Shown here one piece after another: positions 48,001 through 51,000 of a stretch of 64,000 nucleotides of DNA. The stretch lies in NCBI RefSeq assembly GCF_013167455.1, contig NZ_CP038328.1. One strand, given 5' to 3'. This DNA is from Escherichia coli O157:H7. Its GTDB lineage: Bacteria > Pseudomonadota > Gammaproteobacteria > Enterobacterales > Enterobacteriaceae. The position numbers were made by a program. The number at the start of each line of letters is the position of its first letter. The stretch's first letter is position 1.

Positions 48001-51000
48001 TGAACATTGCCATATTATTCAGATTGGAAATGCCCTTGACCGGTAATTCGTCTTCATCACGACTGGCACCAATGAGCGTACCTGGAGCTTGAGGATTTCC
48101 GGTATTTTTAATCAGGCAAGGGATCTGGAACTGGGCGATGGGGGTAATGGTGCGGGGGTGAAGAACTTTAGCGCCGAAGTAGGAAAGCTCCATCGCTTCC
48201 TGGTAGGACATCGATTTCAACAACCTCGCATCGGGCACCTGACGCGGGTCGCAGGTATATACCCCGTCAACGTCCGTCCAAATCTCGCAACAATCGGCGC
48301 GTAAACAGGCAGCCAGCACCGCCGCGGAGTAGTCGGAACCGTTGCGTCCAAGTACCACCAGTTCGCCTTTTTCATTACCGGCGGTGAAACCTGCCATCAG
48401 CACCATGTGATCAGCCGGAATACGACTTGCCGCAATACGGCGGGTGGACTCTGCAATATCGACAGTAGATTCGAGGTAATGCCCCACTGCCAGCAGTTTT
48501 TCGACCGGATCGATAACGGTAACGTTGTGACCGCGCGCTTCTAATACGCCGGCCATAATGGCGATCGACATTTTCTCGCCACGGCAAATCAGCGCAGCGT
48601 TAATGCTATCCGGGCACTGCCCTAACAAACTAATGCCATGCAGGACATGTTTTATTTGGGCAAATTCCTGGTCGACGAAAGTTTTCAATTGCGCCAGCGG
48701 GAATCCCGGCTGGGCGGCGGCGAGTCCCGTCAGAAGTTCGGCAAAAATACGTTCGGCATCGCTGATATTGGGTAAAGCATCCTGGCCGCTAATGGTTTTT
48801 TCAATCATCGCCACCAGGTGGTTGGTGATTTTGGCGGGGGCAGAGAGGACGGTGGCCACCTGCCCCTGCCTGGCATTGCTTTCCAGAATATCGGCAACCC
48901 GCAGAAAACGTTCTGCATTTGCCACTGATGTACCGCCGAACTTCAACACTCGCATGGTTGTTACCTCGTTACCTTTGGTCGAAAAAAAAGCCCGCACTGT
49001 CAGGTGCGGGCTTTTTTCTGTGTTTCCTGTACGCGTCAGCCCGCACCGTTACCTGTGGTAATGGTGATGGTGGTGGTGATGGTGGTGGTAATGGTGGTGC
49101 TAATGCGTTTCATGGATGTTGTGTACTCTGTAATTTTTATCTGTCTGTGCGCTATGCCTATATTGGTTAAAGTATTTAGTGACCTAAGTCAATAAAATTT
49201 TAATTTACTCACGGCAGGTAACCAGTTCAGAAGCTGCTGTCAGAGACTCTTTTTTTAATCCACACAGAGACATATTGCCCGTTGCAGTCAGAATGAAAAG
49301 CTGAAAAATACTTACTAAGGCGTTTTTTATTTGGTGATATTTTTTTCAATATCATGCAGCAAACGGTGCAACATTGCCGTGTCTCGTTGCTCTAAAAGCC
49401 CCAGGCGTTGTTGTAACCAGTCGACCAGTTTTATGTCATCTGCCACTGCCAGAGTCGTCAGCAATGCCATGGCTCGTTCGCGTAAAGCTTGCAGTTGATG
49501 TTGGTCTGCCGTTGTGTCACTTTTCGTCGGTTGTTGTATTAATATTGCTAATTGATAGCAATAGACCATCACCGCCTGCCCCAGATTGAGCGAAGGATAA
49601 TCCGCCACCATCGGCACACCAGTAAGAACGTCAGCCAACGCTAACTCTTCGTTAGTCAGCCCGGAATCTTCGCGACCAAACACCAGCGCGGCATGGCTCA
49701 TCCATGAAGATTTTTCCTCTAACAGCGGCACCAGTTCTACTGGCGTAGCGTAGTAATGATATTTCGCCCGACTGCGCGCAGTGGTGGCGACAGTGAAATC
49801 GACATCGTGTAACGATTCAGCCAGTGTCGGGAAAACTTTAATATTATCAATAATATCACCAGATCCATGTGCGACCCAGCGGGTGGCTGGCTCCAGGTGT
49901 GCCTGACTATCGACAATCCGCAGTTCGCTAAACCCCATCGTTTTCATTGCCCGCGCCGCTGCCCCAATATTTTCTGCTCTGGCGGGTGCGACCAGAATAA
50001 TCGTTATACGCATATTGCCACTCTTCTTGACCAAATGACCGCGAACAGGGTGATCACTGTCAACTTATTACGCGGTGCGAATTTACAAATTCTTAACGTA
50101 AGTCGCAGAAAAAGCCCTTTACTTAGCTTAAAAAAGGCTAAACTATTTCCTGACTGTACTAACGGTTTAATTGTTAAAAAATGCTACATATCCTTCTGTT
50201 TACTTAGGATAATTTTATAAAAAATAAATCTCGACAATTGGATTCACCACGTTTATTAGTTGTATGATGCAACTAGTTGGATTATTAAAATAATGTGACG
50301 AAAGCTAGCATTTAGATACGATGATTTCATCAAACTGTTAACGTGCTACAATTGAACTTGATATATGTCAACGAAGCGTAGTTTTATTGGGTGTCCGGCC
50401 CCTCTTAGCCTGTTATGTTGCTGTTAAAATGGTTAGGATGACAGCCGTTTTTGACACTGTCGGGTCCTGAGGGAAAGTACCCACGACCAAGCTAATGATG
50501 TTGTTGACGTTGATGGAAAGTGCATCAAGAACGCAATTACGTACTTTAGTCATGTTACGCCGATCATGTTAATTTGCAGCATGCATCAGGCAGGTCAGGG
50601 ACTTTTGTACTTCCTGTTTCGATTTAGTTGGCAATTTAGGTAGCAAACATGCAGACCCCGCACATTCTTATCGTTGAAGACGAGTTGGTAACACGCAACA
50701 CGTTGAAAAGTATTTTCGAAGCGGAAGGCTATGATGTTTTCGAAGCGACAGATGGCGCGGAAATGCATCAGATCCTCTCTGAATATGACATCAACCTGGT
50801 GATCATGGATATCAATCTGCCGGGTAAGAACGGTCTTCTGTTAGCGCGTGAACTGCGCGAGCAGGCGAATGTTGCGTTGATGTTCCTGACTGGCCGTGAC
50901 AACGAAGTCGATAAAATTCTCGGCCTCGAAATCGGTGCAGATGACTACATCACCAAACCGTTCAACCCGCGTGAACTGACGATTCGTGCACGCAACCTGC

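What the first reader, a model, noticed from the sequence alone, without database searches (positions are those of the whole stretch)
50413..50553. 46-codon ORF yjjY embedded in the long arcA upstream regulatory region
A clean 46-codon frame lies 95 bp upstream of, and divergent from, arcA, inside the roughly 500 bp region that carries the multiple arcA promoters. Whether it is a genuine small protein or a by-product of regulatory sequence is unresolved from sequence alone.
Basis: partly seen in the sequence, partly recalled or inferred. Interest (0 to 1): 0.15.

Follow-up and report, generated by a model that had tools for sequence, protein, structure and literature searches.

The report
yjjY: chance ORF in arcA control region
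The 46-codon yjjY reading frame is really there, but comparison across enteric bacteria shows it evolves like regulatory DNA for the neighbouring arcA gene rather than like a protein gene, so it is most likely an annotation by-product.

Summary
An ATG-started 46-codon ORF lies at 50413-50553 (-), 95 bp from and divergent to arcA (50649-51365, +). It is the annotated E. coli gene yjjY (b4402; NCBIfam NF052365).

An ORF this long is not unusual. 51% of dinucleotide shuffles of the 635-bp intergenic region contain one.

- About 325 bp upstream of arcA is almost invariant in Enterobacteriaceae. E. coli differs from Salmonella at 1 of 141 nt in yjjY, while arcA four-fold sites differ by 31% and lasT by 54%.
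- Substitutions fall evenly on codon positions (15/16/17).
- dN/dS is 0.7-1.15, against 0.002-0.02 for arcA.
- Every indel in the ORF is a single nucleotide.
- The frame is shifted in all five Cronobacter genomes examined and in another Enterobacteriaceae lineage. It is truncated in several Serratia, and the start codon is ACG in Serratia fonticola.
- There is no Shine-Dalgarno sequence.
- The stop codon lies inside an ArcA-box-like direct repeat.

Published yjjY phenotypes are attributed to altered arcA expression. Verdict: already known locus, low interest. The only residue of interest is an unexplained ultraconserved block in the arcA leader.

The parts
50413..50553 (-). yjjY ORF: 46 codons plus TAA, ATG at 50553-50551. 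Annotated as an uncharacterized protein; judged here not to be under protein-coding selection.
   Evidence: presence and annotation; no coding signature, frame disruptions.
50649..51365 (+). arcA, response regulator of the ArcAB two-component system. This is the gene whose upstream region contains yjjY.
   Evidence: dN/dS against other genera is 0.002-0.023.
50325..50648 (+). Ultraconserved arcA promoter-proximal and leader region (about 325 bp) that contains all of yjjY. Sequence upstream of about 50320 is much more diverged.
   Evidence: E. coli versus Salmonella/Citrobacter/Klebsiella shows 1-3 differences per 141 nt in yjjY and 2-6 per 80-95 nt in the flanks.
50344..50352 (+). TGCTACAAT, an extended -10-like promoter element. 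Assignment as a distal arcA promoter is my inference.
   Evidence: Read. ACGTGCTA at 50341-50348 is invariant in 21 taxa, and the motif is conserved to Photorhabdus. No TSS data were available here.
50358..50371 (+). FNR-box-like palindrome TTGATatatGTCAA, one mismatch to TTGAT-N4-ATCAA.
   Evidence: site. Invariant in 21 taxa and conserved in Photorhabdus and Vibrio. An FNR site at the arcA promoter is supported by Reg-Seq (PMC7567609) and by comparative genomics (PMC1805755).
50411..50426 (+). TGTTA-N6-TGTTA direct repeat with 11-bp spacing (ArcA-box-like). It contains the yjjY stop codon (50413-50415) and a possible -10 hexamer TATGTT (50414-50419).
   Evidence: the only match in the window, 0.10 expected by chance. 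Conserved to Photorhabdus and Vibrio. arcA autoregulation is predicted in PMC1805755. The -10/TSS reading is inference.
50489..50556 (.). Most conserved block of the leader; it encodes YjjY residues 1-21 and its ATG. Conservation is 0.80-0.99 per 10-nt bin across 21 taxa, including Yersinia and Serratia. Function unassigned.
   Evidence: No covariation, no unusual folding energy, no Rfam family.
50495..50572 (+). 25-codon ORF on the arcA strand (MMLLTLMESASRTQLRTLVMLRRSC), antisense to yjjY and sharing its third codon positions. It is a candidate for the Salmonella Ribo-seq sORF reported opposite yjjY.
   Evidence: RIBOSS preprint. Not conserved: ATG lost in Serratia, stop after 5 codons in Siccibacter.
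50566..50643 (+). Second 25-codon ORF on the arcA strand. Its TAG stop (50641-50643) lies in the arcA ribosome-binding region, 5 nt before the arcA ATG.
   Evidence: Retained at 24-25 codons in five Enterobacteriaceae; shorter or different in Yersinia and Serratia.
50599..50648 (+). Conserved proximal leader including the arcA ribosome-binding region. GTTGGCAATTTAGGTAGCAAA (50627-50647) is invariant.
50184..50237 (-). ytjE (b4824 in K-12): a 17-codon TTG-start small ORF on the same strand as yjjY, 175 nt downstream of its stop.
   Evidence: Named in a ribosome-profiling preprint listed (not read). Not conserved outside Escherichia.
49330..50013 (-). lasT/yjtD, a SpoU-family methyltransferase gene. 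It is the next gene on the yjjY strand and was used as a neutral-rate comparator.

Best explanation
yjjY is not a functional protein gene. It is an open frame that happens to exist in the roughly 325-bp arcA promoter-proximal and 5' leader region, and it stays open in many enteric genera only because that DNA hardly changes.

The constraint acts on the nucleotides themselves, serving arcA expression. The recognisable elements are:
- an FNR box (50358-50371);
- an ArcA-box-like direct repeat (50411-50426) that supplies yjjY's last codons and its stop codon;
- strongly conserved leader blocks, one of which (50489-50556) supplies yjjY's start codon and N-terminal half;
- the arcA ribosome-binding region.

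Mutations 'in yjjY' have phenotypes because they alter arcA transcription or the arcA leader.

Shown here: the conservation pattern, the absence of any coding signature, the frame disruptions and the motif matches.

Inferred: which promoter each element serves. For example, FNR would be centred at -61.5 relative to a start site predicted from the TATGTT hexamer, or would overlap a start site predicted from TGCTACAAT. The function of the 50489-50556 block is also only inferred to exist, not identified.
For: 1. Nucleotide-level conservation. E. coli differs from Salmonella, Citrobacter, Klebsiella, Siccibacter and Yersinia at 1, 2, 3, 13 and 27 of 141 nt. The noncoding flanks are equally conserved.

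2. Third positions are not free. They differ at 0/47, 0/47, 1/47, 3/47 and 9/47 sites, while arcA third positions differ by 24-45% and four-fold sites of arcA and lasT by 31-62%. At the arcA rate, the probability of 0/47 is about 3e-6 for Salmonella (my arithmetic).

3. No codon periodicity. Variable columns fall 15/16/17 on codon positions 1/2/3 across 7 species, and 7/4/3 across 5 Enterobacteriaceae. NG86 dN/dS is 0.68-1.15 with dS 0-0.25. arcA gives 0.002-0.023 with dS 0.5-1.75, and lasT 0.06-0.08.

4. Frame and start are not kept.
- A +1 insertion shifts the frame after codon 28 in 5/5 Cronobacter assemblies and in L118.
- One or two 1-nt insertions do the same in 4/5 genomes plus 3 metagenome contigs of another Enterobacteriaceae lineage.
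- Four Serratia-type loci stop after 14-20 codons.
- The ATG is ACG in S. fonticola, L112 and L114, and GTG in Franconibacter-type loci.
- No homologous ORF exists in Tatumella, Symbiopectobacterium, Budvicia, Plesiomonas, Photorhabdus or Vibrio.
- Six indel sites lie inside the ORF span, all 1 nt and none a multiple of 3.

5. An ORF of this length is expected by chance. Its survival in Yersinia is unsurprising (P = 0.18-0.54).

6. No Shine-Dalgarno. The duplex energy is -1.7 kcal/mol, and 62% of all ATGs in the window do as well or better.

7. The stop codon sits in TGTTA-N6-TGTTA, which is unique in the window against 0.10 expected. The FNR box is invariant in 21 taxa.

8. Literature.
- yjjY insertions and the FRT scar act through arcA regulation (PMC12956098).
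- The Dub-seq arcA-yjjY 'epistasis' was ascribed to the intergenic region (PMC6338753).
- FNR and ArcA control of arcA is reported in PMC7567609 and PMC1805755.
Against: The ORF is intact, ATG-started and exactly 46 codons in Escherichia, Salmonella, Citrobacter, Klebsiella, Siccibacter and two Yersinia-type loci. It has a curated NCBIfam model.

The minus strand is transcribed across the whole ORF (dsRNA capture, PMC7373196). Another small ORF on the same strand, ytjE, is annotated in K-12.

Strong nucleotide-level constraint could mask weak selection on a protein. I could not examine ribosome-profiling or tagging data for yjjY, so translation is not excluded. The promoter assignments rest on motif matches. 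The primary mapping paper (Compan and Touati 1994) was not available.
Confidence: 0.8

Rival explanations
1. yjjY encodes a genuine, lineage-restricted small protein of core Enterobacteriaceae and Yersinia. Selection on the protein is hidden beneath the stronger constraint on the overlapping arcA regulatory sequence.
For: The ORF is intact at 46 codons in 9 of the sampled lineages. There is an NCBIfam equivalog model. The minus strand is transcribed (PMC7373196). ytjE is annotated on the same strand nearby.
Against: dN/dS is about 1 and there is no third-position excess. The ORF is frameshifted in Cronobacter and another Enterobacteriaceae lineage, truncated or start-less in Serratia. All indels are 1 nt. 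There is no SD. No Pfam domain was found, and the protein is scored non-TM in the supplement to PMC11188072. The phenotypes are explained by arcA. No paper found here reports the protein.
Confidence: 0.07
2. The functional reading frame is on the arcA strand. A translated upstream ORF in the arcA leader (25 codons from ATG 50495 in E. coli; 47 codons in Salmonella) modulates arcA expression, and yjjY is merely its antisense shadow frame. The two frames share third codon positions, an arrangement that tends to keep both open.
For: The RIBOSS preprint reports a periodic ribosome-footprint sORF upstream of arcA in Salmonella, overlapping yjjY on the opposite strand. The plus-strand frame is open for 47-61 codons in Salmonella, Citrobacter and Klebsiella. 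The geometry of shared third positions was verified from the coordinates.
Against: The absence of third-position excess argues equally against peptide selection in this frame. E. coli has an in-frame TGA upstream. The ATGATG is GCGATC in Serratia, Siccibacter stops after 5 codons, and Yersinia stops at 20. There is no SD (-0.1 kcal/mol). The evidence is a single unvalidated preprint. This rival is compatible with the best explanation if only the act of translation matters.
Confidence: 0.12
3. The minus-strand transcript covering yjjY acts as a non-coding cis-antisense RNA. It pairs with the long arcA 5' leader and directs RNase III processing, so tuning ArcA levels.
For: p19-captured RNase III dsRNA cluster S-383 spans about window 50187-50608, covers the entire yjjY CDS, and is listed among the most abundant clusters. 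The same locus was found by an independent dsRNA pulldown (PMC7373196).
Against: No convincing minus-strand promoter upstream of the ORF was found. The one consensus match would start transcription inside the ORF, with 2.1 matches expected by chance. No terminator was found. Perfect complementarity is automatic for any antisense transcript, so conservation cannot test the idea. The minus-strand RNA shows no structural signal (z = +0.51). The transcript may simply be a long lasT/ytjE leader.
Confidence: 0.1

Closest known systems
yjjY (b4402; UniProt entry for E. coli YjjY; NCBIfam NF052365 'YjjY family protein')
   Same: Identical sequence and position. It scores 96.5 bits against a cutoff of 70 and is annotated in essentially all complete E. 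coli genomes and in K-12.
   Different: Nothing differs in sequence. What this analysis adds is that the family shows no evidence of protein-level selection and is frame-disrupted in Cronobacter, Serratia and others.
The arcA upstream regulatory region (multiple promoters, FNR activation, ArcA autoregulation; Compan and Touati 1994, as cited in PMC7567609, PMC1805755 and PMC7762799)
   Same: It is the same DNA. An FNR box and an ArcA-type direct repeat are present and deeply conserved. The published view that the yjjY ORF overlaps the arcA promoter agrees.
   Different: The primary mapping data could not be read here. The correspondence between the motifs I list and the published start sites is therefore inferred. 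The strongly conserved block 50489-50556 has no assigned factor in anything I could read.
Spurious or 'shadow' ORFs annotated in conserved non-coding or antisense sequence
   Same: The length is expected by chance. The frame is antisense to another open frame with shared third positions. Its conservation is fully explained by the underlying non-coding constraint.
   Different: Unlike most spurious ORFs, it has kept a gene name, a b-number and a curated HMM, and it is included in knockout collections, so it generates misleading 'gene' hits in screens.
Validated E. coli small proteins found by ribosome profiling, such as the neighbouring ytjE (b4824)
   Same: Similar size class, same strand, same intergenic region.
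   Different: I found no report of translation evidence for yjjY. ytjE is itself Escherichia-specific, so conservation is not what distinguishes the two. Direct translation data are.

Membership tests
YjjY family protein (NCBIfam NF052365, equivalog) | Whole-protein HMM score above the curated cutoff (70 bits). | tested here: met
   96.5 bits, E = 7.8e-28, residues 2-46 against profile positions 1-45 of 45. This is membership by sequence only and says nothing about function.
Functional protein-coding gene (small protein) | Purifying selection on the amino-acid sequence: dN/dS well below 1 and an excess of third-position changes. | tested here: not met
   dN/dS is 0.68-1.15. Variable columns fall 15/16/17 on positions 1/2/3. 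The neighbours arcA and lasT give 0.002-0.08.
Functional protein-coding gene (small protein) | Reading frame preserved among relatives: indels in multiples of three and no premature stops. | tested here: not met
   Six indel sites lie in the ORF span, all 1 nt. There are frameshifts in 5/5 Cronobacter genomes and in 4/5 genomes plus 3 metagenome contigs of a second lineage, and truncation to 14-20 codons in four Serratia-type loci.
Functional protein-coding gene (small protein) | Conserved start codon and a ribosome-binding site. | tested here: not met
   ATG is ACG in S. fonticola, L112 and L114, and GTG in L107 and L115. The best SD duplex is -1.7 kcal/mol, no better than 62% of all ATGs in the window.
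Functional protein-coding gene (small protein) | Direct evidence of translation or of the protein (ribosome profiling at initiation, epitope tagging, mass spectrometry). | not testable with these tools
   None of the 30 papers mentioning yjjY that I examined reports the protein. The supplements of the profiling papers were not held.
arcA cis-regulatory region (promoters plus 5' leader) | FNR recognition sequence TTGAT-N4-ATCAA upstream of arcA. | tested here: met
   TTGATATATGTCAA at 50358-50371 has one mismatch. The match alone is at chance level in the window (3 found, 2.96 expected). However, it is invariant in 21 taxa, kept in Photorhabdus and Vibrio, and supported experimentally by Reg-Seq.
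arcA cis-regulatory region (promoters plus 5' leader) | ArcA-P binding architecture: direct repeats of TGTTA-like elements at 11-bp spacing. | tested here: met
   TGTTATGTTGCTGTTA at 50411-50426 is unique in the window against 0.10 expected. It is conserved to Vibrio, and arcA autoregulation is predicted in PMC1805755. Binding itself was not tested.
arcA cis-regulatory region (promoters plus 5' leader) | Sequence constraint exceeding the neutral rate, irrespective of reading frame. | tested here: met
   Divergence from Salmonella, Citrobacter and Klebsiella is 0.7-2% across 50325-50648, against 31-54% at four-fold sites of the flanking genes.
arcA cis-regulatory region (promoters plus 5' leader) | Mapped transcription start sites placing the ORF within the promoter or leader. 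| not testable with these tools
   The primary paper is not held. Indirect support comes from dsRNA spanning window positions ~50187-50608 (converted from the U00096.2 coordinates reported for cluster S-383), which implies arcA-sense transcripts starting at least 460 nt upstream.
Structured cis-regulatory RNA (riboswitch- or leader-type) | Conserved secondary structure with covariation, unusual stability, or a match to a known RNA family. | tested here: not met
   0 of 57 RNAalifold pairs covary. The z-score is -0.27 on the plus strand and +0.51 on the minus strand. There is no Rfam hit at E <= 1.
Upstream ORF / leader peptide on the arcA strand | Conserved start, frame and stop across relatives. 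| tested here: not met
   The ORF at 50495-50572 loses its ATG in Serratia, stops after 5 codons in Siccibacter and after 20 in Yersinia. Translation is reported only in a Salmonella preprint.

The most novel reading that the evidence does not exclude
The 68-nt block 50489-50556, which supplies yjjY's ATG and first 21 codons, is an uncharacterised sequence-specific control element of ArcA synthesis. It is almost unchanged from E. coli to Yersinia and Serratia, where neutral sites are saturated, and its core TTACGTACTTTAGTC is recognisable in still more distant Enterobacterales. Candidate mechanisms are a binding site on the arcA leader RNA for a protein or small RNA, a translated regulatory uORF, or long-range pairing of GGAAAGUGCA (50515-50524) with UGUACUUCC (50609-50617) just upstream of the arcA ribosome-binding site. 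On this reading the element would not be simply one of the promoters already mapped in 1994.
Probability: 0.25. Interest if true: 0.4.

Novelty: already known. Interest (0 to 1): 0.12.

Why it matters
The practical consequence is for screens. yjjY is included in gene lists, the Keio collection and transposon, Dub-seq and experimental-evolution analyses, and it repeatedly appears as a 'hit' for fitness, conjugation and aminoglycoside tolerance. The evidence here says such hits should be read as cis effects on the global regulator ArcA, not as the function of a 46-residue protein. It also suggests the annotation and the NCBIfam model propagate a probably non-coding ORF.

There is also a biological point. 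The arcA leader is far more conserved than needed for the known FNR and ArcA sites, which suggests additional, still unassigned control of ArcA synthesis.

Tried and rejected
- **Exact look-up of E. coli ArcA.** It returned only E. coli-type contexts. I therefore went through cluster members and ArcA homologues from other genera and a metagenome DNA-pattern scan that excludes E. coli.
- **Protein homologue search with YjjY.** It finds only near-identical Enterobacteriaceae sequences and missed the Yersinia ORF, so it is biased toward intact ORFs. I did not use it for the conservation test.
- **RNA explanations.** There was no Rfam match, no covariation in 17 leaders and no unusual folding energy on either strand. 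A classical structured RNA element is rejected.
- **ArcZ pairing as the reason for conservation.** The best ArcZ duplex lies at 50568-50607, outside yjjY and in the least conserved part of the leader. 41% of shuffles do as well. Rejected as an explanation for the yjjY block.
- **Sigma-70 and terminator consensus scan.** It gave one minus-strand match, fewer than expected by chance, and no terminator. Uninformative.
- **Literature for direct protein evidence.** Compan and Touati 1994, Hemm 2008, the EcoSal small-proteome review and Weaver 2019 (mBio) are not held. The profiling supplements are not held.
- **Dual coding on both strands as the cause of third-position conservation.** Rejected, because the two frames share third positions, so synonymous sites would remain free.
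Full report
**Observation**

The window is E. coli; positions 50100-50700 are 100% identical to O157:H7 genomes. An ATG-to-TAA ORF of 46 codons lies at 50413-50553 on the minus strand. arcA (238 aa, receiver plus winged-helix domains) starts at 50649 on the plus strand. The two are divergent and separated by 95 nt.

The ORF is yjjY. It is annotated in more than 5,400 complete E. coli genomes, is b4402 'uncharacterized protein YjjY' in K-12, and matches NCBIfam NF052365 (96.5 bits). It has no Pfam domain, and no Rfam family matches the region.

The next gene on its strand is lasT/yjtD (49330-50013), so the intergenic region is 635 bp.

An ORF of this size is not remarkable. 51% of dinucleotide-preserving shuffles of the intergenic region contain an ATG ORF of at least 46 codons, and the window holds 213 such ORFs.

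**Collecting relatives without bias toward intact ORFs**

A protein search with YjjY returned only 83-96% identical Enterobacteriaceae sequences, so I anchored on ArcA instead. The sources were:
- a genome scan: Citrobacter, Photorhabdus, Vibrio and others;
- ArcA homologues and their contigs: Salmonella, Klebsiella, Yersinia, Serratia fonticola, Tatumella, Symbiopectobacterium, Budvicia, Plesiomonas; Siccibacter was reached through its YjjY;
- a metagenome scan with a pattern from the arcA start that excludes E. coli, giving 24 loci.

The metagenome loci were named by exact ArcA identity as Cronobacter-, Franconibacter-, Siccibacter- and Serratia-type, plus an unnamed multi-species Enterobacteriaceae type. 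Ten isolate genomes of the Cronobacter and unnamed types were then fetched.

**What the comparison shows**

*1. The conservation is at the nucleotide level and is not confined to the ORF.*

From about 50325 to the arcA ATG, E. coli is almost identical to Citrobacter, Salmonella and Klebsiella, whereas sequence upstream of about 50320 is far more diverged.

| E. coli versus | Differences in yjjY (of 141 nt) | yjjY third-position differences (of 47) | arcA third-position divergence |
|---|---|---|---|
| Salmonella | 1 | 0 | 24% |
| Citrobacter | 2 | 0 | 32% |
| Klebsiella | 3 | 1 | 34% |
| Siccibacter | 13 | 3 | 40% |
| Yersinia | 27 | 9 | 45% |

The noncoding flanks are equally conserved. Four-fold degenerate sites differ by 31-55% in arcA and 54-62% in lasT.

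*2. There is no coding signature.*

Variable columns fall 15/16/17 on codon positions 1/2/3. NG86 dN/dS is 0.68-1.15 with dS 0-0.25. For comparison, arcA gives dN/dS 0.002-0.023 with dS 0.5-1.75, and lasT gives 0.06-0.08.

*3. The frame is not protected*.

- All five Cronobacter assemblies and the Cronobacter-type contig carry an extra A (GAGGGAAAAGT). This shifts the frame after codon 28 and replaces the C-terminal 18 residues.
- Four of five genomes and three metagenome contigs of a second Enterobacteriaceae lineage have the same insertion, with or without a second one.
- Four Serratia-type loci stop after 14-20 codons.
- S. fonticola, L112 and L114 have ACG in place of ATG.
- Franconibacter-type loci have GTG.
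- Tatumella, Symbiopectobacterium, Budvicia, Plesiomonas, Photorhabdus and Vibrio have no homologous ORF.

Inside the ORF span there are six indel sites among 21 alignable taxa. Every one is a single nucleotide.

The intact 46-codon ORF in Yersinia, whose central third is diverged, is not surprising. With the observed number of substitutions placed at random, the ORF survives with probability 0.18-0.54.

*4. Translation signals are absent.*

The best anti-SD duplex upstream of the ATG is -1.7 kcal/mol. 62% of all ATG triplets in the window do as well or better.

**What the sequence is instead**

The two ends of the ORF coincide with elements recognisable as arcA control sequence.

- **Stop codon.** The stop (50413-50415) and the last codons lie in TGTTATGTTGCTGTTA (50411-50426), a direct repeat at 11-bp spacing of the kind bound by phosphorylated ArcA. 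It is the only such match in the window against 0.10 expected, and it is conserved as far as Photorhabdus and Vibrio.
- **FNR box.** Upstream lies TTGATATATGTCAA (50358-50371), an FNR-type box that is invariant in 21 taxa. It is preceded by an extended -10-like TGCTACAAT (50344-50352).
- **Published support.** Reg-Seq confirmed an FNR site at the arcA promoter (PMC7567609). Comparative genomics predicted FNR control and ArcA autoregulation of arcA in E. coli, Yersinia and Vibrionaceae (PMC1805755).
- **My inference, not shown.** The FNR box is centred 61.5 bp upstream of a start site predicted from the conserved TATGTT/TATATT hexamer (50414-50419). It also overlaps the start site predicted from TGCTACAAT. 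I could not read the primary promoter-mapping paper.
- **Start codon.** The ORF's ATG and first 21 codons lie in the most conserved block of the leader (50489-50556), which is nearly unchanged in Yersinia and Serratia. I could not assign a function to this block. There is no covariation in 17 leaders, no unusual folding energy on either strand, no convincing promoter match, and no significant ArcZ pairing.

**Literature**

Independent studies already treat yjjY as part of arcA's control region:
[quoted passage not shown] - The Dub-seq arcA-yjjY synergy was ascribed to the intergenic region (PMC6338753).
- IS insertions near yjjY recur in gut adaptation and raise arcA expression (PMC5094792).

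Both strands are transcribed over the ORF (dsRNA capture, PMC7373196). A preprint reports periodic ribosome footprints in Salmonella on an ORF on the arcA strand opposite yjjY. That plus-strand frame (50495-50572 in E. coli) shares third codon positions with yjjY. The lack of third-position excess therefore argues against peptide selection in either frame. The plus-strand ORF is also not conserved in Serratia or Siccibacter.

I found no report of the YjjY protein. The relevant profiling supplements and reviews were not available.

**Conclusion**

The open question resolves toward 'by-product of regulatory sequence', with confidence about 0.8.

Three rivals remain possible but less supported: a real lineage-restricted protein, a regulatory uORF on the arcA strand, and a cis-antisense RNA. 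The last two are compatible with the main conclusion that yjjY is not a protein gene.

The locus is already known and of low interest. The one point worth a specialist's attention is the unexplained depth of conservation of the arcA leader.

Noticed in passing
window 50184-50237 (-): K-12 annotates a second small ORF here, ytjE (b4824), with 17 codons and a TTG start (MSRFIFYKIILSKQKDM). It lies on the yjjY strand between yjjY and lasT. It is intact in this window but has in-frame stops at the aligned position in Citrobacter, Salmonella and Klebsiella, so it looks Escherichia-specific.
   Followed up: partly
window 50566-50643 (+): A 25-codon ATG ORF on the arcA strand ([25 protein letters not shown]) ends with a TAG inside the arcA ribosome-binding region, 5 nt before the arcA ATG. 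That geometry is typical of translational coupling. It is retained at 24-25 codons in five Enterobacteriaceae genera and is shorter or different in Yersinia and Serratia.
   Followed up: partly
window 50515-50524 and 50609-50617 (+): RNAalifold pairs GGAAAGUGCA (inside yjjY) with UGUACUUCC about 35 nt upstream of the arcA start. Both segments are highly conserved (>=15 of 17 leaders at every paired position, most positions identical in all 17), so there is no covariation for or against the pairing.
   Followed up: partly
window 50568-50607 (+): The best predicted duplex between the sRNA ArcZ and the arcA leader lies here, about 50 nt upstream of the arcA ATG. My recalled ArcZ sequence was verified as 100% identical to the E. 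coli arcB-adjacent locus. The position matches the site predicted in Erwinia amylovora (PMC6895013), but 41% of shuffled leaders give an equally good duplex.
   Followed up: yes
window 50100-50700, compared with E. coli genomes (hit H30, NZ_CM130730.1): At least one E. coli genome has the region interrupted: only 64% of the query is covered, in two places, with an 'integrase core domain-containing protein' under the match. This is consistent with published IS insertions upstream of arcA during gut and laboratory adaptation.
   Followed up: no
window 49036-49113 (-) and the surrounding gene order: The thr leader peptide ([25 protein letters not shown]) lies just beyond lasT. The window therefore runs thrA-thrL-lasT-yjjY-arcA-creD and spans the conventional origin of E. 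coli K-12 genome numbering, on the reverse strand.
   Followed up: no
proteins P0001, P0014 and P0016: Individual E. coli assemblies carry yjjY variants with a lost stop codon (61 aa), internal frameshifts (48 aa) or a fusion after residue 28 (76 aa). This shows the frame is also occasionally broken within the species.
   Followed up: no
window 50035-50320: The distal half of the intergenic region is AT-rich and diverges strongly between E. coli, Salmonella and Klebsiella. This contrasts sharply with the near-invariant proximal 325 bp. The boundary lies at about 50320-50325.
   Followed up: partly
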